Virus record (IMG/VR): IMGVR_UViG_3300046167_000632
Coordinates: 1 to 62,030 of that record
Source: a virus
Taxonomy: Duplodnaviria; Caudoviricetes
Strand: one strand, 5' to 3'
DNA: 62,030 nt
Below are positions 19,364 through 55,715 of the stretch, one piece after another. How positions within the stretch are numbered: the stretch's first letter is position 1; each line of letters starts with the position of its first letter. The notes beneath the pieces were generated by a model that saw only the letters and a list, made by a program, of their open reading frames with translations, did no database searches and was not told where the DNA came from. Made by a program: the position numbers and the translations under genes.

Positions 19364-20920
19364 ATGGCACTAATAGAAGTAAAATACTATAACTCATTCA
19401 CCTTAAGGAAAAGTGTAGACTCAAACAGCGACATAAAATGGTTTGGTTCTAGAGGTATACCTCAATCTTTAGGTGGCTGGTACCAGACCGGTAATGTTCC
19501 AGAGGATGATAATGACCTAAACTGGGCTATTGAAGAGTCTAGAATTAGAGGCGGTTATAATAATACTTCAACTTCTTTAGGTGCTAAAGCTTACTTAGTA
19601 GAAGATGAGCCTAGTGGTAGTGTTAGAGGTAATGCTATGATATATTCAGGTATATATAACTCTAGAACAGGTATAAATCAAACAAATCAATTTTCTGTAG
19701 GTGAAGAAATAACTAAAGCAACTGATCCGGCTAACGGTAGTATACAAAAGCTATACGCCGAGGATTCTAATTTGGTTATATTTTCAGAGAAAAAAGTAAG
19801 TAGAGCTCTTATTGATAAAGACGCTATATATACGGCTGAAGGGGGAGGTACTTCTGTTAGTCAACTAAACCTAGTGATTGGTCAAATAATACCTTACGCT
19901 GGAAACTGGGGTATAGGAACAAATCCAGAAAGCTTTGCTGTATACGGTTATAGAAAATACTTTGTAGATAAGAACAGAGGAGCTGTTTTAAGGTTGTCTA
20001 GAGACGGTATAACTGAAATATCAAACTATGGTATGATTGACTGGTTTAGAGACAATCTGAGTATTGTAGACTCTTCAAGTTTTGGGCCAGGTAAAATAAT
20101 AGGTGGTTGGGATATATACACTAAGCAATATACTTTATCACTACAACCAAGCACGCCGCTTACATCAAGACCAGAGTTTGGTTCTTTAGAATATAGTACT
20201 CTTCAATTTGATGAAGCTGTTTTAGGTTGGCCTTCTTTTTATACGTTTAAACCTAGATTTACTTTTAGCCTAGCAAACAGAATGTACAGCATAGGTAATC
20301 AAGCTGGTAATTGGAACAAACTATATGTACACAACAGCACAAATGTTGATAGAGCTGAATTCTACGGAGAGTATAATAACTCAAAAGTAACTTTTGTAGT
20401 AAATCCAGAAGTAAGTACAAGTAAAGTTTTTAAAACAATAAGCTATGAAGGTAGTAATGGTTGGGAAGTTTCAGAATATGTTTCAGATGTTACAGGTGTT
20501 GATAGCTATGAGTTGGATAGTGGCGGAAATCCTATATGGATTTTACCACCTAGTTTAATAGATACTACAAACCCAATAAGTAGTTATTATGAAGGTGAAT
20601 ACATAATAAACCCTATACAATCAAGCTCCACATATAACGAGCCTGTTTATAGACCAGACTATGTTAGTACTTTTGGATCTAATAACCCGCCTTATAATAA
20701 AGAATATGCTGGTTTTGTTAGAAAAGAAAATAAATATTATGCTAATCTAGTAAATAATAGCGAAGGTCAAACAATGCCTGGAGAAATTATATTCGGAGAA
20801 GACATGACGGGTATAAAAGGTTACTATTGCACTGTGACTTTACAAAACGATAATAGTACTAACCCCGGTGGAGCTAAAGAGCTTTTTGCTGTAAATTCCA
20901 CTTTTGTCGTTAGTAGCTAA
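19364..20920 (+). CDS. tail stabilisation-type protein, C-terminal partner
   Basis: 'GIGTNPESFAVYG..YFVDKNRGAVLRLSRDGITEIS' and 'KVFKTISYEG' motifs. Confidence 0.6.
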   Translation: MALIEVKYYNSFTLRKSVDSNSDIKWFGSRGIPQSLGGWYQTGNVPEDDNDLNWAIEESRIRGGYNNTSTSLGAKAYLVEDEPSGSVRGNAMIYSGIYNSRTGINQTNQFSVGEEITKATDPANGSIQKLYAEDSNLVIFSEKKVSRALIDKDAIYTAEGGGTSVSQLNLVIGQIIPYAGNWGIGTNPESFAVYGYRKYFVDKNRGAVLRLSRDGITEISNYGMIDWFRDNLSIVDSSSFGPGKIIGGWDIYTKQYTLSLQPSTPLTSRPEFGSLEYSTLQFDEAVLGWPSFYTFKPRFTFSLANRMYSIGNQAGNWNKLYVHNSTNVDRAEFYGEYNNSKVTFVVNPEVSTSKVFKTISYEGSNGWEVSEYVSDVTGVDSYELDSGGNPIWILPPSLIDTTNPISSYYEGEYIINPIQSSSTYNEPVYRPDYVSTFGSNNPPYNKEYAGFVRKENKYYANLVNNSEGQTMPGEIIFGEDMTGIKGYYCTVTLQNDNSTNPGGAKELFAVNSTFVVSS

Positions 20921-23653: not shown

Positions 23654-26600
23654 ATGTATACTTACAAAGATGCTTCATACACTGACGATCAGATAAAAAA
23701 AGCAGCTGAGCAATCTAATATGACTGTTAAAGAATATTTGAAAAAGCTAGAAGGAGATAAAGATCCTGAGCCTAAGATAAAAGACGGTGACTTGCTTGAT
23801 CCAAATTTTCAACAAGACGCTGCAGCGGGTGCGAATGCGGGGTCTCAACCAATGACAGCATCACAAGCGGGATATGTAGAAACAGAAGATACGGAATTAC
23901 TCTCGGAAGATACTTCTTCGGATTCAGTAAAAGTTAAACTACCTAAAGATAGAAAATACGGTAAAATTTTTGAAATTCCAAATTTTAAAAAACAATCACC
24001 TAAAGATATAGCTAATGCTTATAATCAAATGTATGGTGGTAAGGATGGTGGATTTGAATTTACTTCAAATGTAAATAACGTAACTATAAAAGCTTTAAAC
24101 GGTGAATCTATAACGGTAAATACTAAGGGTCTTTCAAATCCAATGGCTCAAGCGCGTATGAGGCAAGCTGATCCGTTCGATTTGTCAGGTAGTAAAACCT
24201 CTCCCCAGCAGGGTATTGGAGACGATCCCCAAGAAGTTATAAATAATTTTCTAAAAGAAAACTTCAATGAGGATTTAAATGTACAAAATCAAAAAAATAT
24301 TAAAAAATTTGAAAGTTCTATAACTGACAATATAGAGCAATTGGCTTATGATTATATTGAATCTGAAGATATTCCTTATGATCCCACTATGCCTATAAAC
24401 TCTTTAATGAAGTCAGATGGTTTTAGAGATTATGTAAGAAAAAACTCCGTTGAGAAATATGCTGAAAATAGAGACATATCAGGCTCTGGTTTTTTTGGTA
24501 GTATAAATTCTGAAGACATTGGCTTAACAGGTACTCAACCTGATAAATTAGTAGATAAAATGTTGCAAGACATGTCTGCTAAAGAAGAGCAATTAAATGA
24601 ATATAATATTATTGAGCAATATGTTAAACCGCTTAAAGAGTCTGGAAATTGGTTAGAAGCTAGTAACAGAGAGAAGTTGCAACATATAAATAGTATAAAA
24701 GACCCTAAACAAAAAGAACTTGCCAAGGTTAATGATAGATTAATTAAAATAAAAGAAAGCCTAAATCAACCTAATACAGGTGTTGGTGATGTGTCTCAAA
24801 GTGCTTTATCAGATGAATTTGAAAAACTAAAAGAAAGAGCTTCGCTTCTATTAAAACAAGCTATAGATGAAGATGCTGAGTTTTTATTTGCCTCAGACGG
24901 AACTAGAATTTCACCTGCATTAGCTAAAGCAAGTGGTGTAGATGTTGTTGATTTAACAAAAGACTATGATATAGCTAAAGTTGAGTTAAAAAAGAAACTA
25001 GATACCTCAGACTCTCAAACAATACAGAATGATTATAGAATACACTTAGCTGAATTTAGTGGTTTTCAAGAAGAGATAAATACTCGAAAGTTTGATATTA
25101 AAATCAAAGCTGGATTCATGCAAGAAGGTTCACCATTAGCCGAAAAATTATTTGATAGAGGTTATTCTATGATTGATACTAAAGGCAAGGAAACAACTTC
25201 AGAGTACGCAACAGAGGGTGTTATAAAAGGAGTTACGTTAAAAGACTTGATGGCAGTACAGCCTGGTTTTGCTACAGATGAAATAGTTATATCTAAGCCT
25301 GAAAGTAGACCAGGTGAAGCTACTATAACTATGAGTGATCTAGCTGGTTATGTAGCAAACACAAGACAAACTCAAAAAAGATTATCTACAGAACATGCTG
25401 CTTGGAAACAATTATATCTATTAAATGTAGATCCAGGTTCTATAAAAGCCAATGACATAGTTAGTCAAGGTGGTAATTTTATGGCGGGTGTATTAGATGC
25501 TTTGCCTGGACAAGGCAATGCTGGTTCTGATAGTTTTAGAAAAGATAATTTATTTAGAACAGATAGAGATGACTTGAATGATGCTGAAGCATTAATAAAT
25601 AAAGTAAACTCAACACTAGAACCAGATCAAAAGCCTTTTGAGTTATCTGCTGAGCAAATGGATTCTTTCAAGCAAGGGTTCGGAGAACAGTTTTGGACTG
25701 GTCTAGGTGGTTTTGTACCTATGATCGCGGAATTAGGTTTAGTTAGTGCCATGACTGGAGGTATGGGTAATTCTTTTGGTGTAGCTAACTACTTAAGTAA
25801 GTTAAAAAATGTAACCTACTTAGCTAAAACTGCTACAAAAGGCGCTACGCCTATATCTAGAGCTGTTGTAGCTGCTAAAGCTAAACAAGCTAAAATGAGT
25901 GTTGATGCGTATGTTAAGTCTCAAGGTTTAAGGAAGGCCACAGGTACTGCATTTAACAAGGCTCAAGCATTGTTTATTCAAGGAGCTCAAGAGGAAGGTA
26001 AGATGAAATTACTAAAATTTTTTGGCGTTGATATGCCTACTGGCGCAGGTGCTGGTTTTGTAATTGGTGGTCACGCTATGAGAAAAATATTACCTACTAA
26101 TGTGTTTAAAGGTTTCTCTGGAGCCGCAGCGATGAATACTGCTTTAGAAAAAGGTTTATACTCCGGTTTAGGTGGTGCTGCTGGCGCACAAACAGCTGCT
26201 CCATTAGAAGCCCTAATAGCTGACCTTCAAAACAAAAAATCTTTCGACACTTTTGTAGAGGAGAAGTATGGTGATATGGAAGACTGGGCTAAGCACGCTT
26301 TTATGGAGGCTTTGCAGTTTAGTGTGATTGGATTAACACATGCTAGTAAGGCTGACAGGAGCTTGACTATGCAGTCTAAAAGAAATCTATTACTTAGAAC
26401 AAACAAGGAAATAACTGACAGGTTAGAGAGAGGAGATGTAACAGATCAACTAGGTAACCAATTTCAATTAAGAAATGAATTAATAAATCAAATAAGAGTA
26501 GCTGAAAATAGAGAAAGATTCTTAGATAAAAATGTGTTGGCAGCGGAGACTCAAGGTTTGTTACAGAAATTTAACAAGCAATACAAAAAAGAAAATGGCA

Positions 26601-29600
26601 CAGATGCTTTTACTATGAATGTATCTACCAATGGTGAAGGCATGAAGCTAGGTGAAGGAGAATCAGCAGCCGTTACAAAACGTAATGGTAAACTACATGT
26701 GGATGTTGATGTGTCTAAAATGAATGAAGGTACACTTCCTCATGAAATATATCACGTTGTTTCGCGTTTAACTTTCGGTAAAGACGTAGGTGTACAAAAA
26801 GCACTACAAGAAGGATTAGCTAAGTCTGTTGGTAAAATGGATTTTGAAACTGTTGATCCAAGAACTGGAGAAATAAGAAATATAGAAAACTTACCTGAAG
26901 CAGTTAAAGAAGCTTACGAAAAAACACAAGATAAGGATTCAACTTTTGAGGAATTTAACGCTAACTTAATTGACTTGCTAAGTAGACCTGAAAATAGAGA
27001 CATGTTAATAGAAAACAACGTCTTAGGATCTCTAAAGCAAAATATAAATACTTTTTTAGAAAAATCTTTAACAGGTACTGCTTTAGAAAATACAAAGCTA
27101 GGTAAGGTTTTATTACCTGAACTAAATAATCCTGATGCTGTTGTCAAGTTTTTATCTAGACTAAGTAAAGACTTTGGTAAAGGTAACTATAGCCCAAAAT
27201 TAATAAAGCGATTTCAAGATATAGAAATAACTAAAGACGGTAAGAAACTAATTGAGAAACAGACTGGTAAGGTATTAAACATAGATAAAACTGCTCAAAA
27301 AGAGTTAAAACAAGAGTCTTTAGACCTATCTAATGCAAATAAAAAAGCTTTTGAAGAGTTTGAAGCAACTGGAAACAAATCGGATCTTATAGGTAAGGTT
27401 TATGAAAATAATCAAGGTTTAATACAAAGCTTTGTAAATAGAAAATTTGTAAAAGGATTAGGCGTATCAAGAGAGATGTTTGAAGGGGAGGTTGGATCAG
27501 AGATATACGATAAAATTCTCGGTACTTATTTAAAAAGAGATGCTAAATTAAAAGACGTGCCGTTTGGCGCTTATGCTAGACAAGCCTTGTTTGGTGGCGG
27601 TGCTTTTGGTGGAGGTAGACTTGGTAATATACTAAAAAGACTAGGCCAGCAAGGTGACTTATTTAATAAAGATCTTGAAAGTAAAGAAGCACAATCTGTG
27701 ATGTCTGAGGAGACTAGAGATTTTGATGAAAAAATTGTTTCGGAAAACAAAAAAACAGATCCTAAAGAACTACAATTAAGTATAGATGTTGTAAATGATT
27801 TAGTACCTGAAGTACAGAAAGATTTACAAGAAAAAAGCTTAACTAAAGAAACATATAAATCTTTAAGATTAGGGGAAAACGCTGCTAAAGCTCTAGCGAA
27901 GGCATACGATATACGTGAAAAAGATAAAACAACATCTGATGGTAAAAAGGTTAAAGGAGATTTACTACCAGAGTGGTTCACGGTACCCGCTAGAAACTTA
28001 CCCCAAGGTTCTATGGAAGGTTTTAGAAAATTAAGATCTGAGCTAAACAAAAATGCTCAAATGGTACTTAATATTTTACCTGAAGGTTACACGTTGGATA
28101 AAAAGTCTACAGGTGTGCCAAACTCTATACAAGAAGCATTTTACAATAAAAGAAAAATAGGTAGTAAGAACGTATATGAATTAAAGAAAAACATAAGTAT
28201 AAAGGATGTAAAAGATTTACTAAAAGAGCCAGAAGGTAAATTATATAGAGATAAACAAGTTCAACAGATAAAAGGCTTAGCGGAGTTAGTGTTTAGAGGT
28301 CTGGTGAATAACGTTGCTAGATCAAATATGAAAATAGAAGGAGCAACAGCTATAGAGTTACAGAAGTTAGCTGATGGTAAAAATCCTATGCTAGCTCAAC
28401 AGGTGCTAGGTAAATTAAAAAATACACCTGGACTAAACGAAGTTACTATTAAAAGATTAATTGGTAATTTTTTAGTAGATAGAGAAAAGTTAAGAGAAAC
28501 TAATCCTACTTTTGTAGAAAGATTTGAAAGCGAAATTATACAAGATAATATAGCTAAGGCTGAAGAAGGCAAAGCTGACGCTCCAACATTTAAGACTTCA
28601 GATAAAGCTGATATTAAAATAGCGGAGATAAATGGTGCGCCTAAAGGCGTTGATATAAGCAATATCATAGATGGCAACACCGGTAAGTCTATGCGTTCAA
28701 CAGAGACTTTTAAAAGAAAAACTGGTAAGTTTAAAAAAGGAGTATTTATAAAAGGTACTGAAGGTCCTGAGATGAAAAGATCTATATTTGATACAGCTAG
28801 ACTTGAAACCTTTTTAGATGGAATAAGTGAACTTTCAAAGTATTACCCTGAAGATTTACAGAAATATTTTACTAAAGAGGTTCTACTACAGTCGTTTGGA
28901 AGTACTAGTAGAGGTACCGCTAGAAATGTAGGTAAGGATGCTAGAAAAATAACCACAGAAGGTAAGTTGATGTCAGAGAGTGATCTTAGTAAAGGTCAGT
29001 ATGAAAGAATAACAGATAACCTAGGAAAGCTATATAAAGAAGGTGTATTTGATAATATAGAGCCTGGAGATTTTATGAGTGATGCACAGCAAAAGAATGC
29101 GTTACAAAAATTTCAAAATACCGGAGATATAAATGTTCTTAATAAATACATAAATTCTAAAGATAACGCATATAAATCAGATGTTTATTACGCTATGGGC
29201 GTTGCTAAGCAAAAATATTTATATGATGCTAAAACTTCAGCTGAATTCGAAAAAAGAGCAAAAGTTATATATCAATTAGCAGCTGAGAATAGTGGAGCTA
29301 CTTCTGGTTATGGTAGACAGTTTGTACCTATAATGGCTGTAAAGAAAACAGGTGAACCTGGTAGAATGAAGTTGGAACATTTAAAGTCCTCCTTAGAGCA
29401 GTCGATGCAAGAAGCTAAAGCTATTGTAGAAGGTAGATGGATGAAAGATGGTAAAAAAATAATGAACGACTATAAGGGTATTATATCTTTCAAAAAATAC
29501 CTAGACGTAATAGACAAGTTAGGTGGTGTTACAAATACTTCTGGTTTAGCTAGGATGGTTTTAGATTTCGAAAACTTAAAAGACTACGTAACTGTTGAAA

Positions 29601-32600
29601 GTGGTTTTAAAGAAACTCTATACGATAAATTAATGACTGATAATGCTCAGCGTGTTGGAGCAAAATTAAGAGAGCTAAATGTGCCGTGGATGAAAGACAA
29701 GGTTGCTGCAATATCTCTAGAACCTAGTAAATCTAATGAAGTTTTACTAAAAAGTTCTTTAGATAATAAAGCAGATGTTAAGTCTAGCTGGAAAGCCAAC
29801 GTTGAGTTGTCTAAGAAAGCAGGTACTTTAGACAATAAAAACTCTAGTAATGCTGAATTACTTGAAAATTTAAAAAATAGAGATAAAGCTATTAGCTTAG
29901 CTCAGAAGAAATTAAAAGAAACTAAAAAAGCTAGAGTCTTTGATTTTGATGATACGCTAGCTAGAACTAAAAGCAACGTGCTGTATACAATGCCTAATAA
30001 TGAAGGAGGTTTCAGCAAAGGTTCTACTAAATTAAAAGCTATATTTATGGTTGGTGGTCCTGGCGCTGGTAAAACAAACGTAGGTAAAGGACTACAGCTA
30101 GGTAGAAGAGGTTATAAAGTAGTTAATCAAGATATAGCTCTTGAAGCTATGAAAACAGAATCCGGATTACCTGCTAATGAATCAAACTATACAGCTGAGC
30201 AAAGATCAATTAGGTCTAAGTTAGGTTCTGCCGCTAGAAAAGCAGCTGTAGCTAAGTTCGATAAGTATGCCGCTAATGGAGACGGTATGGTAATTGATGG
30301 CACTGGCGCTTCATATAACGCTACTACTAAAAAGATAAAAGCATTACAAGAAAAAGGCTATGAAGTACATATGGTTGTAGCTAACACACCGTTAGAAACA
30401 GCATTAGAAAGAAACAGAGCTAGAAAAGAAAGATCACTAGAAGATTTTATTGTAGAAAAAACTTATAACCAAGTTCAAGAAAGTTTAGCTAAATATAGAG
30501 AGGATTTTGGAGATCGTTTATACGAAATAAATACTGAAGCTATAGAGTACGGAAAACCACTTCCAGGTGATTTCCTGCAAGGAGTTTACAAAGGAATAAA
30601 CGCTAACAAAGTAGGTAAAGTAGATGCTGCTACATTTGCTAAAGAAGCGGGTAATATGGAAGCTCAAGGAGCTCAATGGGATTTCTCTGAGTTTAGTAAG
30701 GTGATGCAAGGTAGCAAAGGACCTTTATTCGAAGTAGCTAAGTCTATAAGTGAAAGCCCAGGTGAAAGAGATATGTTCGTATTAACAGCTAGACCAGCAG
30801 ATGCAGCTCCAGCTATAAAAAGTTTTTTAAAAGAACTAGGTTTAGATATACCGTTAGAAAACATAACAGGTTTAGCAAATGGAGCTCCATCGGCTAAAGC
30901 TAACTGGATGCTTAAGAAAGCAGCTGAAGGTTATAATGACTTTTACTTTGCTGATGATCACTTAGGTAATGTTAAAGCTGTTAAAGATGTATTAAGTGTA
31001 GTAGATGTTAAAAGCAAAGTACAATTAGCATTAGCACAGAAAAAGCTAGGAAAAACATTTAATGATATAATACAGGAAAAAACAGGTATAGCTTCAGAAA
31101 AAGTTTTTGGAGAAGCTAAAGCTGAAATAATGGGTAAAAGCAAAGGTAAGTTTGATGTATTTATATCACCAACCGCTGAAGACTTTGCTGGTCTACTATA
31201 CAAGACTTTACCAAAAGGTAAAAAAGGTGAAAATGCTCTTAAGTTCTACAAAGAAAACTTATTCGATCCATTTGCTAGAGCTGAGGACAATATTACTAGA
31301 GATCAAGTAGCATTAAGTAATGATGTTAGAGCTTTAAAAAATAGACTGGGTATAATACCTAAGAAACTAAGAAAGAAAAATGAAACAGGTTTTACTAACG
31401 AGCAGGCTTTAAGAGTTCGTATGTGGACAAAAATGGGTTTAGAAGTTCCTGGCTTAAGCAAGTCTGATACTAGCTGAACTTAATAAAGTCATAAAAGATA
31501 ACCCAACATATGAAGCTTTTGCAAATGAACTTCTATCAACAACTAAAGGTGATGGTTGGGCTGAACCAGGCGAAAGGTGGCTTAGCGGTACATTGACTAG
31601 TGATGCTATGGCATTACTTGGTAAAGTAAAAAGAGCTAAGTACTTGGAGCAGTGGAAGCAAAATAAAGATGAAATATTCTCAAAAGCTAATTTAAATAAA
31701 CTAGAAGCAGCTTATGGTAAGAAGTACAGGAAAGCATTAGAAAAGACCTTAGAAAGGATGCAGTCTGGAAGAAATAGAAATTCTAAAAACACGGCTGGCG
31801 ATAGAGCTTTAGATTATATAAATAACTCTGTTGGTGCTATAATGTTTTTAAATACAAGATCAGCTGTTTTACAAACAATTTCTAGTATAAACTTTATAAA
31901 CTGGACAGATAATAATCCTTTAAAAGCTGGCGCTAGACTAGCGGATGTAAAGCAATATTCTAAAGATTTCTTAGAGATAATGAATTCTGACTACTTAGTA
32001 GCTAGACGTGATGGATTAAAATTAAATGTAAGTGAGGCTGAAATAGCTGCAGATACAGGCGCTAAGGGTATAATAAATACAATACTAAAAAAAGGTTTTG
32101 TATTTACTAAATACGCTGATAGTTTTGCTATAGCTTCAGGTGGTGCTACTTTTTATAGAAATAGAATAAACACTTATAAAAAGCAAGGGCTATCTGAGAT
32201 AGAAGCTAAAGAAAAAGCTTTTATAGACTTTAAAGAAATATCTGAAGAATCTCAACAATCATCTAGAACAGATAAGATAAGTCAACAACAGGCTAGTAAC
32301 TTAGGTAGAGTTATTTTAGCTTTTGCTAATACACCAATGCAGTATGCTAGGTTGCAGAAAAAAGCTATGTTAGACCTCGCTAATAGAAGAGGGGATTGGA
32401 GAGAACATACATCTAAAATAGTTTACTACGGATTTGTACAAAACTTAATATTTAATGCAATACAAAATGCTTTATTTGGTTTAGCCTTCGCTGACGATGA
32501 GCAAGATGAAAAGTTACTGTCTAAATCAGGAAGAGTTGCTAACGGTATGGCTGATTCATTACTTAGAGGTACTGGTATACCAGGAGCAGTAGTTGCTTCA

Positions 32601-38620: not shown

Positions 38621-39370
38621 TTATAAGCTTTCTTGTTTAACAAATGTTCCATTAACCATTTTACCCTGTCTAGACTTTATAACGTTATACGCGCTGTCTA
38701 TACATTTTTCTATGCTATAGCCTCTAAGCTCTGCTAAGTTAGTTAATACAACAACCATATCGCCAATAGCATCTATTACTTCAGGTTCATCGTTCTTTAA
38801 TATAGCCTGAGCAAGCTCACCAGCCTCTTCCATAAGTTTCACAAACTGAGTTCTGGCATCACCTGATTTATATATACCCTTGTCTCTAGCCCATTGACGT
38901 ATATCATCAAACCTGTTTGATTCTGTATTTTGCTCTATAAACTTATTAGCGTATGCTTTATTATATATATAACATCTGTTTACGTTAAACATAGATGTTC
39001 TAGCGTTTTTAACTATCCAGTCAATAGTTTGATTGTCTAAGCTAAATACTCCATTATTGGTTGACCATTTTAAGCCTATATTATCCATAAGTTGTCCTTT
39101 AAGCTTATTTAAAGGCACTGGAAATGTTGATGTTTGTTCTGTTGCGTTTATATTCATTTGATTAAATAGTTTTTTATATGGTTTTATATCTACTTTGTAG
39201 CCATAAGACTTTTGAAGTTCTATTTCCTTGTCAGATATATAATCTATATCATCGCTAGTAAGTAGAACTTCGTATTCGTCTGGTCTGTAACCCTGTTGGA
39301 TAGTTACCCGACTATTAAGATCACGTGTAACACCGATCTTTTTACCAGGTATGTGGTATAAATAATACAT
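38621..39370 (-). CDS. MazG-like NTP pyrophosphohydrolase with GIY-YIG-like N-terminus
   Basis: C-terminal KLMEEAGEL...DAIGD; N-terminal YYLYHIPGKKIGVT..L..R; probable start at 39370. Confidence 0.75.
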   Translation of the reverse strand: MYYLYHIPGKKIGVTRDLNSRVTIQQGYRPDEYEVLLTSDDIDYISDKEIELQKSYGYKVDIKPYKKLFNQMNINATEQTSTFPVPLNKLKGQLMDNIGLKWSTNNGVFSLDNQTIDWIVKNARTSMFNVNRCYIYNKAYANKFIEQNTESNRFDDIRQWARDKGIYKSGDARTQFVKLMEEAGELAQAILKNDEPEVIDAIGDMVVVLTNLAELRGYSIEKCIDSAYNVIKSRQGKMVNGTFVKQESL

Positions 39371-39374
39371 AATT

Positions 39375-40016
39375 TTATAGTTTATTATTATATAGGTGCA
39401 TGTTATGAGCGTGGTGATAATACCAGCCCGTTTCAATAGACAGCCTGTCTGCAACCATTTCCTGCAATGATGCAAATTGATACTGATCATTACAGAAACC
39501 GTACCAGATGTCATTAGAACGCATATAAACTGACATACACAGTCTATTGTTTATGATCGTAAATTGCACAGCATAAGTACATGGCGTGTCATAACCGTAG
39601 TCACTTATTTCTTTAGCATCATATATAGATATAGCTGCTTGTCTAGTGCTTGGATCTCTTCTAAGTATATCAACGACATTATCTAATTGATTTCTACGCT
39701 GCCATTGGTAACCATAATTAGAATTAACCTTACGATCTTCATTTGCCATACGTTCCCATATAGGTGGTATACTACCATATAATTCTCCTAATTTGTCAAT
39801 ACTAGGATCACCAGATAAATACCAAGCCCATTCAGCTGCGGCGTATTTTTTATTCCACTTACGTTCAACATTTGTTATAACTTTATCTGAAGGATTATCT
39901 ATATAAAAACCACAGTTGAATATAGCCCTTGTATCACCAAAGTCAATACCTTTTTGCAGTATTTCATCTATAACACCTTCATATGCTTCATTAGCATTGT
40001 TAAATCTTGTTTTCAT
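39375..40016 (-). CDS. thymidylate-synthase-superfamily enzyme, T4 gp42-like dCMP hydroxymethylase type
   Basis: NSNYG, PCT, MRSNDIWYGFCND (Asp at the dUMP/dCMP specificity position), NMHLY. Confidence 0.75.
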   Translation of the reverse strand: MKTRFNNANEAYEGVIDEILQKGIDFGDTRAIFNCGFYIDNPSDKVITNVERKWNKKYAAAEWAWYLSGDPSIDKLGELYGSIPPIWERMANEDRKVNSNYGYQWQRRNQLDNVVDILRRDPSTRQAAISIYDAKEISDYGYDTPCTYAVQFTIINNRLCMSVYMRSNDIWYGFCNDQYQFASLQEMVADRLSIETGWYYHHAHNMHLYNNKL

Positions 40017-44654: not shown

Positions 44655-45275
44655 TCATAATTGTTGGTTTAATAATTCTTTTTCTTTCTTCAATGTATTG
44701 TTCATGTTTCTGTATATAGTTCTAGTTGAGCAATCAAGCAAACCAGCTAGACCGCTTATAGTTATTTTCTTGCCAAACTCGTTAATATCTAACATACATT
44801 GGTAAATTGCTTCACTATCTACATTACTAGTTTTACCTATTAACTTACCGACTATACTTAGTTTCTCACTGACAGTCAGCATGTTATGATCTTTAAATAT
44901 AACTTTACGTAATTTATTTCTAGGTGGTTCATCAAGATCACTCATTAATACATCATATACTATTTTTTCATAGTGCCAAGAGCTAATATCAAAGGTAACA
45001 AATCCATTTTTTTTATCACATATAACTTTAGCCATGTTATCAAACTGATCTTGATTCATAGTGGTATTTAAATACCATAAAACATACAAATGCCATTTAA
45101 GACTTTTGTAAGAGGTTATCTTAGCGTTGGTGTTAAATAATGTGTAGCATTCATAAGTACCATTTTCAAAGAACATATACTTTTCAGTTTCTATAGTAGG
45201 TATATCGCTTATAGGGTCTTGTCTATATACGATGCCTCTGTTTACTAAATATTTTATGTTTCTTGTATATGACAT
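44655..45275 (-). CDS. DNA-binding protein with C-terminal helix-turn-helix
   Basis: 'ITISGLAGLLDCSTRTIYRNM' HTH; palindrome overlaps its start codon. Confidence 0.65.
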   Translation of the reverse strand: MSYTRNIKYLVNRGIVYRQDPISDIPTIETEKYMFFENGTYECYTLFNTNAKITSYKSLKWHLYVLWYLNTTMNQDQFDNMAKVICDKKNGFVTFDISSWHYEKIVYDVLMSDLDEPPRNKLRKVIFKDHNMLTVSEKLSIVGKLIGKTSNVDSEAIYQCMLDINEFGKKITISGLAGLLDCSTRTIYRNMNNTLKKEKELLNQQL

Positions 45276-45311
45276 TAGCCCCTTACTATATAATCTTATG
45301 GGCTGTTGTCA
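45270..45311. promoter_or_regulatory. spaced palindrome copy A (operator/origin-like)
   Basis: TGACATTAGCC-N20-GGCTGTTGTCA. Confidence 0.7.
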
Positions 45312-45370
45312 CAGTACCCTTTTTCTTAGTTTTATTTTTTTTAAGATTTTCAATCTTATCCTTCATGCCT

Positions 45371-53382: not shown

Positions 53383-53458
53383 TAGTCGTTGGTGGAATCG
53401 AACCACCTCACAAAGTAGAGCTCACGTAGTCAAAATGCAGAGTGAAACCGTTACGACT
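53383..53458 (-). ncRNA. tRNA-like RNA 3 (non-canonical)
   Basis: AGTCGT/ACGACT acceptor-like stem; GGTGG-TTCGATT-CCACC T-arm; GGTT after the 5' strand as in RNAs 1 and 2. Confidence 0.6.
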
Positions 53459-53475
53459 TGTTTGATCTGAGAGTA

Positions 53476-53703
53476 CTATTTTTCTAGTACTTCTCGAGCG
53501 ATCACTGGTACACTAGTTGAAGAAGTGTAAGACTTGTACTTAATGAAGCACGCCATATTTTCCAGTTTAGACTTCATTACTTCATACACTTTATCGTGAT
53601 TGTAGGTAACTGTTTTACCATTTTTGAAGTTGACAGTGATTAACTGATTTTTACCGATTAGAGATTTTCTGATTACAAATCTTTTTGAAATTAAAGTTGA
53701 CAT
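53476..53703 (-). CDS. early protein, paralog of 54857-55087
   Basis: About 51/75 identical residues by hand count; has its own promoter repeat. Confidence 0.8.
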   Translation of the reverse strand: MSTLISKRFVIRKSLIGKNQLITVNFKNGKTVTYNHDKVYEVMKSKLENMACFIKYKSYTSSTSVPVIAREVLEK

Positions 53704-53790
53704 AGTTAAAATTATTTAGTTATTATTATTATTATTATTAGTTTGTTACATTTATATTATCCAAATGGAATATTATTTTGTTTGTAAAAT

Positions 53791-53958
53791 TTATATAGTT
53801 TTAAAAGTTATAAAGTTTTTAGTTAATAGTTTTGGAATATCAATATTAGAAGGATTATTAATAATTTTAAGTTTATTATTTAAAGTTATAATATTAATAT
53901 AATTATTAGTTAATAAGTTAGTAGTTTGTTTAATTTGGTATTTATTTATTAAAAACAT
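53791..53958 (-). CDS. 55-aa ORF with G-less coding strand (not in ORF track)
   Basis: MFLINKYQIKQTTNLL...FITFKTI*; fills the space between two repeat copies; 2 G in 168 nt. Confidence 0.55.
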   Translation of the reverse strand: MFLINKYQIKQTTNLLTNNYINIITLNNKLKIINNPSNIDIPKLLTKNFITFKTI

Positions 53959-54198
53959 AGTTATTATTTTTTAAAGTTTATTATTATTATTTATTTTCAT
54001 TAATATTATCCAATACTTAATTTATTTTGTTTGTAAAAGGTGTATAATTATTTATTAGTAAAAATAGTTACAGAAGTATAATACTCTTTCTCTTCTTGTA
54101 CAATACAGAAAGTTTCTCGTAGGACGGAGTCTACTCTTCCGATCTTGTTTCAGAATCAGGCCTGCAATGGAACACTAAACTTAGTTTCTCAAAAAGTG

Positions 54199-54241
54199 TG
54201 ACATTTGCCTATTAGATTAAGATAGTAACAGGCTATTGTCA
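54199..54241. promoter_or_regulatory. spaced palindrome copy B
   Basis: TGACATTTGCC-N21-GGCTATTGTCA. Confidence 0.7.
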
Positions 54242-54245
54242 CAGT

Positions 54246-54395
54246 TTACAGATGCTCATCAACTAGCATGTTGAGATCATCCCACAGTTTTCCAGTTTGT
54301 TTAGTATCATACACATCATAGATTGTATATACTTTATTGTCCACTGTCAATTCATAAAGATCATTGTCTTGATCAATTTTAAATGATACTACCAT
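54246..54395 (-). CDS. 49-aa acidic early peptide (not in ORF track)
   Basis: MVVSFKIDQDNDLYEL...LVDEHL*. Confidence 0.5.
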   Translation of the reverse strand: MVVSFKIDQDNDLYELTVDNKVYTIYDVYDTKQTGKLWDDLNMLVDEHL

Positions 54396-54559
54396 TGTTT
54401 TCTAGGATTAAATTTGATTTGTACAACATATTCATTTTTCTCTTGATCATCATCTCTGTGATCACAATATTCTGAGAAGTCTATTATTTTTGATTGATCC
54501 AGTGTATCATAAAATTTGTTGAGGTTTGAGATCCCTGTGATCATTTTTTCTATTATCAT
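54389..54559 (-). CDS. 56-aa early peptide (not in ORF track)
   Basis: MIIEKMITGISNL...NPRKQW*, preceded by AAT-rich leader. Confidence 0.5.
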   Translation of the reverse strand: MIIEKMITGISNLNKFYDTLDQSKIIDFSEYCDHRDDDQEKNEYVVQIKFNPRKQW

Positions 54560-54560
54560 A

Positions 54561-54620
54561 ATTATTAGTTTTATTATTATTAGTTTATTATTATTAGTTT
54601 ATTATTATTAGTTTATTATA
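54561..54620. repeat. 14-bp tandem repeat, ~4 copies
   Basis: (ATTATTATTAGTTT)n forming the leader of the 54559 ORF. Confidence 0.75.
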
Positions 54621-54778
54621 TTATTTAGTTGTGCTAAATTTTGTTTTAGGTTTTGAATATTATTAATTGAAATTAGGTGATTTTTTAGATAATTGTTTTT
54701 TAAGTGTTCTGGTGTAATTGTAGTTGAAGGGTGAAATAGATTTTTGTGAGTTAAGATTTGGTTGATTAATTTTTGCAT
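54608..54778 (-). CDS. 56-aa ORF with G-poor coding strand (not in ORF track)
   Basis: MQKLINQILTHKNLFHP...AQLNNIIN*; follows repeat copy 54808-54849; 3 G in 171 nt. Confidence 0.55.
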   Translation of the reverse strand: MQKLINQILTHKNLFHPSTTITPEHLKNNYLKNHLISINNIQNLKQNLAQLNNIIN

Positions 54779-54856
54779 AGTTGTTAATTATTTAAGTTAT
54801 TATTTATTTACATTTATATTATCCAAGTTGGATTTCGTTTTGTTTGTAGTAAGATC

Positions 54857-55087
54857 TTAATCAGTTATGATTAATGATCTTGTAACTACAGGCATTGAAG
54901 TTGATGAAGTGTATGATTTATACTTAGCCCAACAGTTCATTGTTTCAAGTTTTGGTTTCATAACATTGTATACATCGTCGTGATTGTACTTTGAAACTTT
55001 TCCGTTTTTGAATGTTACTTCAATGATTTGATTTTTTCCGATTAATGATTTGCGAACAACAAATCTTTTTGATTTTAAGATTGACAT
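54857..55087 (-). CDS. early protein, paralog of 53476-53703
   Basis: Shared SKRFV.RKSLIGKNQ and KYKSYTSSTS blocks. Confidence 0.8.
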   Translation of the reverse strand: MSILKSKRFVVRKSLIGKNQIIEVTFKNGKVSKYNHDDVYNVMKPKLETMNCWAKYKSYTSSTSMPVVTRSLIITD

Positions 55088-55185
55088 AATTTATTTATTT
55101 TATTTAGTTATTATTAATTATTTATTTCATATATATTATCCATTATATATATTATTTTGTTTGTAAGTAGTTTACGATAATTCGA

Positions 55186-55356
55186 TCAAGATTTCCTGGA
55201 TAGATCGAAATCGTTACGAGCTGCCCAAGCCTTGAGCTCAGGGATTGGACCGAAGAAGATCTCTTCGACTGATCCGCGTTGATCATGATCAAGCTCCGCG
55301 TAAAGCTTTTGGTGAAGACTCATTGAGATCTTATCAATTGTGGTAAGGTATGACAT
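55186..55356 (-). CDS. 56-aa first gene of the early arm (not in ORF track)
   Basis: MSYLTTIDKISMSLHQKLYAELDHDQRGSVEEIFFG...SRKS*; between two repeat copies. Confidence 0.6.
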   Translation of the reverse strand: MSYLTTIDKISMSLHQKLYAELDHDQRGSVEEIFFGPIPELKAWAARNDFDLSRKS

Positions 55357-55483
55357 ATTTTGTGATTTAGATGTAGAGCTTAATTGCTTACATATATATT
55401 ATCCATGATCATATGTGTTATGTTTGTGAAATCAGCTCTACGAAAATGATCGATGATCACAGTATGGATCGATCCTACGAGGC

Positions 55484-55517: not shown

Positions 55518-55616
55518 TGTGGGGCCGTGGGCTAAATGAAAATGATTTTGTGATCAGGGGCCGTTGGTGAAAAAAGAGGTGTAACACTTTTACCCCTATA
55601 TATCTAACGAAAACTA

Positions 55617-55658
55617 TGACATTAGCCTTATAGAGTATATAGTAAGGGGCTATTGTCA
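55617..55658. promoter_or_regulatory. spaced palindrome copy C
   Basis: TGACATTAGCC-N20-GGCTATTGTCA; spacer is the reverse complement of copy A's spacer over CCTTACTATATA. Confidence 0.7.
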
Positions 55659-55715
55659 CATTATTGTAAAAAATAGCTGTTTTATGTGAGTATATATACT
55701 ATAATAAATAGAATT

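What the first reader, a model, noticed from the sequence alone, without database searches (positions are those of the whole stretch)
53791..54778. Two early ORFs whose mRNAs are essentially G-less (template strand C-less)
Seen: 53958-53791 has 2 G in 168 nt and 54778-54608 has 3 G in 171 nt, start codons included; their leaders are also nearly G-free, while C remains common on the same strand. Both stay open for 55-56 codons in sequence where TAA should be frequent, and each starts just after a promoter repeat. The peptides are almost only N/I/K/L/T/Q/H. Neighbouring cassettes have normal G. Inference, alternatives: (a) a template free of modified cytosine is easier to transcribe at entry, which ties to the gp42-like gene; (b) the mRNA resists G-directed toxins or GTP depletion; (c) an unstructured RNA or easily melted DNA element; (d) strand-specific C-to-T hypermutation scars.
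Basis: partly seen in the sequence, partly recalled or inferred. Interest (0 to 1): 0.85.

Follow-up and report, generated by a model that had tools for sequence, protein, structure and literature searches.

The report
Phage early genes written without guanine
Two small early genes of an uncultured marine phage are spelled almost entirely with A, C and T and are kept that way by natural selection, so their proteins use only about a dozen amino acids; why guanine is excluded is still unknown.

Summary
ORF1 (53958-53791, minus strand) has 2 G in 168 nt and ORF2 (54778-54608) has 3 G in 171 nt. No other base or strand shows such a tract in the 62-kb phage genome.

Both are real genes. They have no in-frame stops against many out-of-frame ones, and each follows a repeated early promoter. 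Both have conserved relatives: 286 and 16 protein clusters. The ORF1 family folds with pLDDT 97 as a 55-residue beta-alpha-beta-beta-alpha-beta domain.

The lack of G is selected at the nucleotide level. In 15 distinct ORF1-family sequences, 0 of 40 variable third codon positions hold G. The neighbouring gene in the same genomes has G at 22 of 64. Six sequence-unrelated G-poor gene groups occupy promoter-proximal slots in this phage clade, and the closest relatives lack both cassettes.

The cause is open. My preferred reading (inference, about 0.35) is that the transcribed strand is kept free of cytosine, which this phage probably replaces with hydroxymethylcytosine. I found the mirror case here: Flavobacterium phage immuto, whose G is fully replaced, has a nearly C-free gene. 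Hypermutation scars, chance ORFs and GTP shortage are rejected or unlikely.

This scan has noted similar base-free early genes on other phage DNA. My four searches of an open-access library found nothing in print.

The parts
54800..54850 (-). Early promoter repeat that precedes ORF2 (core GATAAT-type box at 54824-54814).
   Evidence: It is a member of the 10-copy direct-repeat family D2. The core was located.
54779..54813 (-). A 35-nt A/T-rich leader of ORF2. Its single G lies in the promoter-motif ATG.
54608..54778 (-). ORF2, 56 codons, 3 G in 171 nt. It belongs to family F2 and is predicted to be helical.
   Evidence: Searches give the counts and frames. The family has 16 protein clusters. 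Across 17 distinct DNA sequences the stops by frame are 0/127/108. AlphaFold2 gives pLDDT 80.6 with four helices.
54560..54607 (-). G-free tandem AAT-rich spacer (a 14-nt unit about three times) between the ORF2 stop and the next ATG. No promoter repeat lies here, so the two G-normal genes 54559-54389 and 54395-54246 probably share ORF2's transcript.
   Evidence: Sequence; repeat families D4 and D11; C positions.
53987..54037 (-). Early promoter repeat that precedes ORF1 (core at 54011-54001).
53959..54000 (-). A 42-nt leader of ORF1 with one G.
53791..53958 (-). ORF1, 55 codons, 2 G in 168 nt. It belongs to family F1, a mini ferredoxin-like beta-alpha-beta-beta-alpha-beta protein built from 12 amino-acid types, with pI 10.1.
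   Evidence: Searches give counts and protein properties. The family has 286 protein clusters. Across 15 distinct DNA sequences the stops by frame are 0/83/147. AlphaFold2 gives pLDDT 97.4 and pTM 0.78.
53738..53788 (-). The next promoter repeat. It starts 2 nt after the ORF1 stop and ends the G-poor tract.
53682..54070 (.). Tract 1: 5 or fewer plus-strand C per 170 nt.
54535..54835 (.). Tract 2: 5 or fewer plus-strand C per 170 nt.
39375..40016 (-). Thymidylate-synthase-fold gene, most similar to cytosine C5-hydroxymethylases. It is context for the template-strand reading.
   Evidence: Pfam PF00303 at 4e-28. In the PDB search, CMP 5-hydroxymethylase scores 4e-21, ThyA 1e-17 and T4 dCMP hydroxymethylase 1e-12.
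38621..39514 (-). MazG-type nucleotide pyrophosphohydrolase next to the hydroxymethylase-like gene (context).

Best explanation
SHOWN. ORF1 and ORF2 are two unrelated, real, protein-coding accessory early genes. Each is the first gene behind a copy of the phage's repeated early promoter. Ongoing selection at the nucleotide level keeps guanine out of their sense strand, in the leader, at synonymous sites and in amino-acid choice. That limits the proteins to roughly F, L, I, S, P, T, Y, H, Q, N and K, plus the initiator Met and a rare Asp, Glu or Ala. The cassettes come and go between promoter repeats.

INFERRED (cause). What is being avoided is cytosine in the transcribed DNA strand. This phage probably replaces C with 5-hydroxymethylcytosine or a derivative. 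A template strand with no C would carry none of the modified base. These genes could then be read at full speed and without error whatever happens to that base, for example poor reading by RNA polymerase, or excision or nicking by host enzymes that attack modified bases. Lesions on the non-template strand hardly affect RNA polymerase. Small, swappable early genes of this kind would suit counter-defence proteins, but their function was not determined.
For: Coding:
- The reading frame has no in-frame stops, against 83 and 147 in the other two frames, in 15 distinct F1 sequences. For 17 F2 sequences the counts are 0/127/108.
- Variation by codon position in F1 is 29/24/40.
- The F1 fold has pLDDT 97.4 and the F2 fold 80.6.
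- The families hold 286 and 16 protein clusters.

Selection against G:
- In the window, 0 of 26 and 0 of 27 K/L/Q/T/P/S codons hold G, against 3.7-5.8 expected.
- In F1, 93 of 147 columns vary and 35 columns show A, C and T, yet 0 of 40 variable third positions hold G. In the adjacent 75-aa gene of the same 11 genomes it is 22 of 64. Fisher p = 8e-6.
- Of 336 distinct promoter-proximal ORFs of the clade, 13 have under 5% G, 4 lie between and 319 have 8% or more.
- The low-G ORFs fall into six blastp-unrelated groups.
- All 15 low-G ORFs out of 2382 are on the sense strand. No C-less tract was found in any of the 80 loci.

Accessory nature:
- The closest relatives L008 and L009 lack window 54853-54249 and 53955-53790.

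Template reading:
- The thymidylate-synthase-fold gene matches CMP 5-hydroxymethylase best. An Asp aligns with that enzyme's Asp in the N-D motif.
- MazG-type genes lie beside it and a deoxynucleotidase is encoded in the early region.
- The gene is present in 7 of 7 relatives that are at least 90% complete.
- Mirror case checked here: Flavobacterium phage immuto lost its dG peak to fdPreQ1 (passages of bioRxiv 10.1101/2023.04.13.536721). It has plus-strand C-less tracts, and its plus-strand gene gp143 has 5 C in 357 nt.
- A review states that non-template lesions have little effect on RNA polymerase, while template abasic sites cause pausing and A insertion (passages of PMC8989532).
- Defence glycosylases that excise modified phage bases are described (passages of bioRxiv 10.1101/2025.10.29.685425).
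Against: - No measurement shows that this phage's DNA is modified.
- The hydroxymethylase-like gene is equally present in relatives that have no G-less cassette within 6 kb of the marker gene (5 of 5). Presence of the enzyme therefore does not predict the cassettes.
- Of the clade's promoter-proximal genes, 319 of 336 have normal G, including the window's first early gene. Modified C in a template cannot be a general obstacle.
- Base-free genes are not universal in modified phages. I found none in T4, whose C is fully replaced according to the glycosylase preprint. I found none in Campylobacter phage CP220, whose G is fully replaced. I found none in Cellulophaga phage phi38:1.
- My own test of the pairing rule therefore rests on two genomes.
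- ORF2 seems to share its transcript with two G-normal genes.
- Every sequence fact fits avoidance of G in the RNA equally well.
Confidence: 0.35

Rival explanations
1. Target-free message. G is avoided in the RNA because something cuts or marks RNA at guanosine. Candidates are a host decay-initiating endonuclease of RNase Y type, a G-specific defence toxin, or a shut-off nuclease of the phage itself. The G-free messages then outlast the others.
For: G is excluded from leader, coding and synonymous sites alike. S. aureus RNase Y cuts after G at 58% of mapped sites in A/U-rich RNA, and the authors remark that 'all RNAs have guanosines' (passages of PMC4608709). The RNase Y family model registers a match in Bacteroides thetaiotaomicron among the control genomes.
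Against: No nuclease of this kind was found in the phage. The host is unknown. One search does not say whether the Bacteroides match passes the family cut-off. The mirror case, a C-poor gene in G-modified immuto, would need a second, C-specific agent, whereas the template reading needs one principle. ORF2's message probably continues into G-rich genes.
Confidence: 0.25
2. Structure-free message. Without G, an RNA can form only weak A-U pairs. This favours fast, Shine-Dalgarno-independent initiation on Bacteroidia ribosomes, or escape from structure-dependent RNases. C can stay because it has no partner.
For: The minimum free energy is -9.4 kcal/mol for ORF1 and -0.8 for ORF2, against -17 to -37 kcal/mol for six neighbouring 150-nt gene starts. 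In Flavobacterium johnsoniae, initiation is tuned by mRNA structure and upstream adenines (abstract and passages of PMC6847099). This reading explains why G is lost while C is tolerated.
Against: ORF1 folds better than its dinucleotide shuffles (z -1.9; 7 of 200 shuffles fold as well), so A-U pairing is not minimised. In 319 ordinary promoter-proximal genes, G drops to 3% only at -15..-1 and is back at 13% right after the ATG. The cited paper places the effect at about -20 to +20, not across a whole ORF. It does not explain a C-poor, G-rich gene in immuto.
Confidence: 0.15
3. Rho loading site. A long stretch with C far above G is the signature of Rho-dependent termination. The cassettes would then be attenuators, read through only while ribosomes cover the short ORF.
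For: The C-over-G skew is 0.81 and 0.84 over about 170 nt, with T at 39% and 26%. In B. subtilis, Rho-terminated fragments have stretches over 150 nt of high C relative to G, plus T-richness (passages of PMC13323073). One F1 subclade lacks an ATG.
Against: C is not enriched in ORF1: it is 11% against 15% in other genes. ORF1 is followed at once by another promoter, so polarity there would have nothing to regulate. Protein sequence and fold are conserved. Even the ATG-less copies keep the frame and a third-position excess of changes.
Confidence: 0.07
4. Mutational footprint. The pattern comes from a one-off or continuing strand-specific C-to-T (sense G-to-A) hypermutation, or from genes born recently out of G-free leader sequence that have not yet regained G.
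For: Where G does occur in the F1 family, the alternative base is mostly A. N, K, I and T are the G-to-A products of D, E, V and A. Leaders of all cassettes are G-free and carry expandable tandem repeats.
Against: In F1, 93 of 147 columns vary and 35 of them show A, C and T together, yet no third position ever shows G. The gene next door in the same genomes has G at 22 of 64 variable third positions, so there is no regional mutation bias. Synonymous G use in the other early genes equals that of late genes. The F2 family shows a graded 3-10 G per gene, not a single event.
Confidence: 0.04
5. Not genes at all. These would be A/T-rich spacers or long leaders that happen to stay open, because without G only TAA can stop a frame.
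For: There are no Pfam or PHROG hits. The composition is low-complexity. Six loci carry an F1 copy without an ATG: five and L100 (alignment).
Against: The stop counts by frame are 0/83/147 and 0/127/108. The start context is conserved. The families hold 286 and 16 protein clusters. The F1 model has pLDDT 97.4.
Confidence: 0.02

Closest known systems
[quoted passage not shown]
   Same: It is a small hypothetical gene within a run of small genes of a Flavobacteriaceae phage. One base is almost absent from its sense strand: 5 C in 357 nt. The missing base is the partner of the base the phage modifies; G is fully replaced by fdPreQ1.
   Different: The missing base is C, not G. The protein is acidic and unrelated. 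The phage is a 160-kb myovirus. I did not test selection in that family.
Site-free messages, such as ACA-less mRNAs that escape the MazF endonuclease
   Same: Sequence is shaped by avoiding what an enzyme recognises, down to synonymous sites.
   Different: Here a whole nucleotide is missing, not a trinucleotide. That removes nine amino acids from the protein. No cognate enzyme is known.
Laboratory G-less cassette for in vitro transcription (recalled: Sawadogo and Roeder 1985; not read)
   Same: It is a promoter-driven unit whose transcript needs no GTP beyond its start.
   Different: This one is natural, protein-coding, conserved and under selection.
Rho utilisation regions, and the purine bias that avoids them (PMC13323073: abstract and passages)
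   Same: C exceeds G strongly over more than 150 nt.
   Different: The skew comes from loss of G, not gain of C. The stretch is a conserved, apparently translated ORF. Avoiding Rho would predict the opposite composition.
Shine-Dalgarno-less, A-rich initiation regions of Bacteroidia (PMC6847099: abstract and passages)
   Same: The leaders here are A-rich and G-free, as in all cassettes of this phage.
   Different: In ordinary genes the depletion ends at the start codon. Here it runs to the stop codon.
Promoter-early cassette arrays of T4-type phages
   Same: Small accessory early genes, each with its own promoter copy, are exchanged between relatives.
   Different: This is a different phage type. 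No G+C-rich stem-loop can exist in a G-free unit. Base exclusion is not part of that description as far as I know.

Membership tests
Protein-coding gene (as opposed to spacer or non-coding RNA) | The frame is kept open against its composition, and substitutions follow codon periodicity. | tested here: met
   Stops by frame are 0/83/147 (F1, 15 sequences) and 0/127/108 (F2, 17 sequences). Variable columns by codon position are 29/24/40.
Protein-coding gene (as opposed to spacer or non-coding RNA) | A canonical start codon is present in all members. | tested here: not met
   Six loci hold an F1 copy with no ATG: L026, L028, L029, L038, L041 and L100 (L026 and L100 are identical in the core block). 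ATT or ATC stands at the aligned start. The copies still differ by 5-25 of 174 nt with a third-position excess.
Protein-coding gene (as opposed to spacer or non-coding RNA) | Transcript and protein have been observed. | not testable with these tools
Ferredoxin-like (beta-alpha-beta-beta-alpha-beta) fold | Order of secondary-structure elements. | tested here: met
   The AlphaFold2 model has E2-4, H6-18, E22-26, E29-34, H41-47 and E52-54.
Ferredoxin-like (beta-alpha-beta-beta-alpha-beta) fold | A significant structural match to a solved member. | tested here: inconclusive
   Foldseek against the PDB gave a best E of 0.7, with TM about 0.6 to the UreE C-domain and to designed ferredoxin folds. 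Against BFVD the best E was 0.15. The VIA-align library was not available.
Cytosine C5-hydroxymethylase (T4 gp42 / MilA type), for gene 39375-40016 | Thymidylate-synthase fold. | tested here: met
   PF00303 at 4e-28.
Cytosine C5-hydroxymethylase (T4 gp42 / MilA type), for gene 39375-40016 | Closer to cytosine hydroxymethylases than to thymidylate synthases, with Asp in place of the ThyA Asn at the base-specificity position. | tested here: inconclusive
   The best PDB hits are CMP 5-hydroxymethylase (4e-21), against ThyA at 1e-17 and T4 dCMP hydroxymethylase at 1e-12. In the printed alignment, the query's N-D lies over the enzyme's S-D. That this is the specificity position is recalled, not tested. 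PHROGs calls the protein a thymidylate synthase.
Cytosine C5-hydroxymethylase (T4 gp42 / MilA type), for gene 39375-40016 | Modified cytosine is present in virion DNA. | not testable with these tools
   The phage is uncultured, and there are no chemistry or raw-signal data.
Rho utilisation (rut) site | C well above G over 80-150 nt or more. | tested here: met
   The skew is 0.81 and 0.84.
Rho utilisation (rut) site | C-rich, untranslated RNA. | tested here: not met
   C is 11% in ORF1, below the 15% of other genes. The stretch is a conserved ORF.
G-to-A hypermutated sequence | G is replaced by A only. The change is a single event, so later substitutions restore G at neutral sites. | tested here: not met
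   A, C and T alternate at 35 columns, and 0 of 40 variable third positions have G. The control gene has G at 22 of 64.
Target-free (nuclease-resistant) message | The target is absent beyond chance, and this is conserved among homologues. | tested here: met
Target-free (nuclease-resistant) message | A cognate nuclease is present in host or phage. | not testable with these tools
   The host is unknown, and no RNase was recognised in the phage.

The most novel reading that the evidence does not exclude
A general rule of phage genome writing. Phages that replace one DNA base keep a swappable set of small early genes whose transcribed strand contains none of that base: G-free messages in cytosine-modifying phages, and C-free messages in guanine-modifying ones. 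These would be damage-proof templates. They stay readable, and are read without error, while host glycosylases or nucleases attack the modified base. They would encode the counter-measures. As a by-product, nature has built well-folded proteins from alphabets of 11 to 15 amino acids.
Probability: 0.25. Interest if true: 0.9.

Novelty: categorically new. Interest (0 to 1): 0.75.

Why it matters
First, a selective force that removes a whole nucleotide from genes, at the price of nine amino acids, has not been described in the literature I could search. Whatever it is, it acts at the start of infection and is likely part of the phage-host arms race.

Second, if the missing base tracks the base a phage modifies, composition alone would predict DNA modifications. 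It would also flag candidate counter-defence genes in uncultured phages.

Third, the ORF1 family is a natural 55-residue domain built from about 12 amino-acid types, with no Gly, Ala, Val, Glu, Arg, Cys or Trp, yet it is predicted with very high confidence. That bears on questions about minimal protein alphabets.

Fourth, G-free natural messages with known promoters would be handy tools for studying transcription and RNA decay in Bacteroidia.

Tried and rejected
1. ORF1 as a G-to-A 'recoded' paralogue of the neighbouring 75-aa gene. This was my own idea from reading the two sequences side by side. hhalign of the two family profiles gave probability 1.4% and E 0.037 over 16 columns. Local alignments with G and A treated as one letter, and with residues merged into their G-to-A classes, scored within 2 SD of codon or residue shuffles. 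Rejected.

2. Function by homology or fold. There were no significant Pfam or PHROG hits for either ORF or its small neighbours. Foldseek against the PDB and BFVD found nothing at E <= 0.001. The ESM Atlas gave no usable hit.

3. tRNA and Rfam scans of the whole window found nothing.

4. Close cultured relatives. blastn of 53400-55400 and tblastn of the 75-aa protein found nothing in GenBank phages. The nearest cultured phages share about 29% in a structural protein: Cellulophaga phi38:1, phi40:1 and Calle, and Flavobacterium elemo.

5. A virion RNA polymerase in the 2607-aa protein. phmmer against the PDB found nothing, and Pfam found only a kinase module. Which polymerase reads the early promoters remains unknown.

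6. Pfam TGT (PF01702) as a marker of guanine modification found nothing even in immuto. The record's own annotation names DpdA, FolE and QueC-F-type genes.

7. More F2 DNA in IMG/VR: only the same two contigs. The metagenome scan gave 21 loci.

8. Expression.

9. Literature. Searches for guanine-free or G-less phage genes, and for modified cytosine with template strand, gave no description of natural base-free genes. The library holds open-access papers and preprints only, and supplements were closed.
Full report
WHAT THE WINDOW IS

The window is a whole IMG/VR virus record of 62,030 bp, estimated 96% complete. Its GroEL is about 41% identical to those of Flavobacterium phages. One structural protein is about 29% identical to proteins of Cellulophaga phages phi38:1, phi40:1 and Calle and of Flavobacterium elemo phages. 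One protein carries a crAss-type muzzle domain. It is therefore an uncultured tailed phage related to phages of marine Flavobacteriaceae.

Genes on the minus strand from about 55.4 kb downwards form the early and replication arm. Ten copies of a roughly 50-bp repeat lie between 55430 and 47277. Each stands shortly before an ATG and an A/T-rich leader. I call them early promoters from this geometry only. No transcript data were available, and the polymerase that uses them is unknown.

THE OBSERVATION

The counts are right. ORF1 (53958-53791) has 2 G in 168 nt and ORF2 (54778-54608) has 3 G in 171 nt. The G's are the two start codons plus one Asp, one Glu and one Ala codon.

Over the whole genome, only plus-strand C (that is, minus-strand G) shows such holes. 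There are 194 windows of 170 nt with 3 or fewer, and none for the other three bases. They merge into two tracts, 53682-54070 and 54535-54835. The chance expectation is about 1e-5 per genome.

The leaders are 42 and 35 nt, each with one G that belongs to the promoter motif. The sequence is present in many independent assemblies.

ARE THEY GENES?

Yes, with high confidence.
- In the window, the reading frame has no internal stop, while the other two frames hold 22 stops (ORF1) and 13 stops (ORF2).
- ORF1 has homologues in 11 of the 80 related loci fetched through the neighbouring 75-aa gene. Six more IMG/VR loci were found with the family profile. The large protein collection holds 286 clusters at E <= 0.001.
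- ORF2 has 16 clusters and 21 metagenome loci.
- Across 15 distinct ORF1-family DNA sequences, stops by frame are 0, 83 and 147. Across 17 ORF2-family sequences they are 0, 127 and 108.
- AlphaFold2 folds the ORF1 family (41 sequences) with mean pLDDT 97.4 and pTM 0.78. The model is a 55-residue beta-alpha-beta-beta-alpha-beta domain. The ORF2 family (18 sequences) gives four helices at pLDDT 80.6.
- Neither model matches a known structure significantly, and there are no family hits. Function is unknown.
- Both proteins are basic, with pI about 10, and use 12 and 14 amino-acid types.

IS THE LACK OF G SELECTED?

Yes.

Within the window:
- None of the 26 and 27 Lys, Leu, Gln, Thr, Pro and Ser codons uses a G-containing synonym. 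From this genome's own codon usage, 3.7-5.8 were expected.
- Residues whose codons must hold G number 1 of 54 and 2 of 55, against about 40% elsewhere.

Across the ORF1 family:
- 93 of 147 aligned nucleotide columns vary, and 35 of them show A, C and T.
- None of the 40 variable third positions ever shows G. The six columns with any G are first or second positions that make Asp, Glu or Arg.
- The adjacent 75-aa gene, taken from the same 11 genomes, has G at 22 of 64 variable third positions. Fisher p = 8e-6.

This rules out a one-time mutational event and any regional mutation bias.

The ORF2 family is graded. It has 3 to 10 G per gene. Third-position G is 4.2%, against 9.9% in the control gene. 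G appears at 8 of 46 variable third positions, p = 0.054. The window's copy lies at the extreme end.

A CLASS, NOT A CURIOSITY

- In the 80 related loci, 15 tracts with 3 or fewer G per 150 nt occur in 14 loci. All are on the sense strand. No C-less tract occurs. One of the tracts, in L035, is only promoter, leader and gene start.
- Of 2382 ORFs of 40 codons or more in all six frames, 15 have under 4.5% G, and all are on the sense strand. The single ORF with under 4.5% C is the antisense shadow of ORF1.
- Of 336 distinct promoter-proximal ORFs, 13 have under 5% G, 4 lie between 5 and 8%, and 319 have 8% or more. The distribution is therefore two-humped.
- In the ordinary genes, G is depleted only at -15..-1 (3%) and is back at 13% in the first 15 nt after the ATG.
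- The low-G ORFs form six groups with no blastp similarity between them.
- The cassettes are accessory. The closest relatives, L008 and L009 (100% and 99% identity in the 75-aa protein), lack exactly window 54853-54249 and 53955-53790. These are stretches bounded by promoter repeats.

AN ODDITY

Six loci carry an ORF1-family copy with no ATG. ATT or ATC, or AAT-ATC in one locus, stands where relatives start. The unit from the promoter to the next gene's ATG then holds no G at all. These copies differ from each other by up to 25 of 174 nt, with most changes at third positions, and the frame is intact. They still look translated. Related proteins with an ATG a few codons upstream exist.

WHY IS G EXCLUDED? 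WHAT THE DATA SAY

Hypermutation scars and chance ORFs are excluded, as shown above.

Easily melted DNA cannot explain a strand asymmetry.

The RNA is indeed almost structure-free. The minimum free energy is -9.4 and -0.8 kcal/mol per 150 nt, against -17 to -37 for six neighbouring gene starts. Structure-free starts do matter in Bacteroidia (PMC6847099). But ORF1 is more structured than its own shuffles (z -1.9), and ordinary genes of this clade need G-poverty only just upstream of the ATG.

By the criteria measured in B. subtilis, a strong C-over-G skew makes the cassettes look like Rho targets (PMC13323073). However, C is not enriched in ORF1, the ORFs are conserved as proteins, and ORF1 abuts the next promoter.

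A G-preferring decay nuclease such as RNase Y is a real possibility (PMC4608709). It is untestable here.

THE TEMPLATE-STRAND READING

I checked that gene (39375-40016).
- It has the thymidylate-synthase fold.
- Its best solved relatives are CMP 5-hydroxymethylases, ahead of thymidylate synthases and of T4 dCMP hydroxymethylase. An Asp aligns with that enzyme's Asp in the N-D motif.
- MazG-type genes lie beside it and a deoxynucleotidase is encoded in the early region.
- It is found in 8 of 10 related records searched, and in 7 of 7 that are at least 90% complete.

The phage is thus probably a cytosine modifier, and a G-free message means a C-free template.

Earlier notes of this scan (unchecked AI notes) report the same pairing in other phages. 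They also report the mirror pairing, C-free messages in guanine-modifying phages. I tested the mirror case myself on a cultured phage whose chemistry is published.
- In Flavobacterium phage immuto 2-6A, the dG peak is gone and is replaced by fdPreQ1 (passages read).
- Its genome has plus-strand tracts with 4 or fewer C per 150 nt at 68218-68724, 69418-69580 and 73173-73329, and no G-less tract.
- These tracts lie in plus-strand small hypothetical genes. One of these, gp143, has 5 C in 357 nt.

Results against the rule:
- T4, whose C is fully replaced according to the glycosylase preprint, shows no base-free tract. The minimum is 8-9 per 150 nt.
- Campylobacter phage CP220, with fully modified G, shows none. 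Its minimum is 5 C, with one window of 4 G.
- phi38:1 shows none.

So base-free genes are optional. Where I saw them, in 2 of 2 genomes, the missing base fits the rule. That is suggestive, not proof.

A mechanism that would make sense of the rule comes from two sources. Lesions on the non-template strand hardly affect RNA polymerase, while template abasic sites cause pausing and insertion of A (PMC8989532). Defence glycosylases that excise modified phage bases exist (bioRxiv 10.1101/2025.10.29.685425). A gene whose template holds no modified base would stay readable under such attack. This step is inference.

WEAKNESSES OF MY PREFERRED READING

- Modification is not shown.
- The enzyme is present in relatives without cassettes.
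- Most early genes have normal G.
- ORF2 probably shares its transcript with two G-normal genes.
- Every sequence fact is equally compatible with avoidance of G in the RNA.

I therefore give it 0.35, the RNA-target reading 0.25, structure-free RNA 0.15 and Rho 0.07.

NOVELTY

My four literature searches found no description of natural genes lacking one nucleotide. The library is open-access only, and supplements were closed. This scan has met the phenomenon repeatedly on other phage DNA.

What this window adds:
- a G-free case in a Flavobacteriaceae-type podophage-like genome that probably modifies cytosine;
- six unrelated G-poor families in one clade;
- a clean neighbour-gene control;
- a very confident fold from a 12-letter alphabet;
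- copies that have lost even the G of the start codon;
- a named, cultured mirror case (immuto gp143) on which experiments are possible.

Noticed in passing
L026:6590-6766, L028:7120-7296, L029:5742-5918, L038:5743-5919, L041:5746-5922, L100:274-459: These ORF1-family copies have no ATG. ATT or ATC stands at the aligned start, the frame is intact, changes are mostly at third positions, and there is no G from the promoter to the next gene's ATG. This may be non-AUG initiation in a Bacteroidia phage.
   Followed up: partly
window 54070-54245 (minus strand): This is a roughly 180-nt stretch with normal G and no ORF, lying between the 49-aa gene and the ORF1 promoter. Part of it (54110-54162) is 88% identical in relatives L010, L011 and L013. 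A similar block follows the ORF1-family gene in L094. There is no tRNA or Rfam hit.
   Followed up: partly
window 54246-54559 (minus strand): The two G-normal genes between the G-less cassettes are visibly dense in GATC. The G-less cassettes can hold none.
   Followed up: no
window 54560-54607: A 14-nt A/T/C unit is repeated about three times between the ORF2 stop and the next ATG. Leaders of other cassettes hold similar AAT repeats. This shows how G-free sequence can grow.
   Followed up: no
window 53476-53703 and 54857-55087 (minus strand): A 75/76-aa early gene is duplicated (68% identity). It is present in 321 IMG/VR stretches. G-less cassettes usually sit just before or after it. It has no family hit.
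   Followed up: partly
window 45268-45316 and 55615-55663: Two copies of a 49-nt element (73% identity) bracket the early region. One lies at the divergence point of the two transcription arms.
   Followed up: no
window 23654-31477 (+) and 19364-20920 (+): A 2607-aa protein carries a zeta-toxin/AAA_33-type kinase module (residues 2128-2270) and has no PDB relative. A 518-aa protein carries a crAss-type muzzle C-terminal domain.
   Followed up: no
NC_055915.1 68330-68686, 69418-69580, 73173-73329 (loci L135, L149): Flavobacterium phage immuto, whose G is fully replaced by fdPreQ1, has a nearly C-free gene (gp143, 5 C in 357 nt). Two further genes have C-free 3' parts. This is a cultured system for experiments on base-free genes.
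   Followed up: partly
G009:C1:60092-60725 (record of L019): In this relative, rated 100% complete, the hydroxymethylase-like gene is interrupted by a TAA.
   Followed up: no
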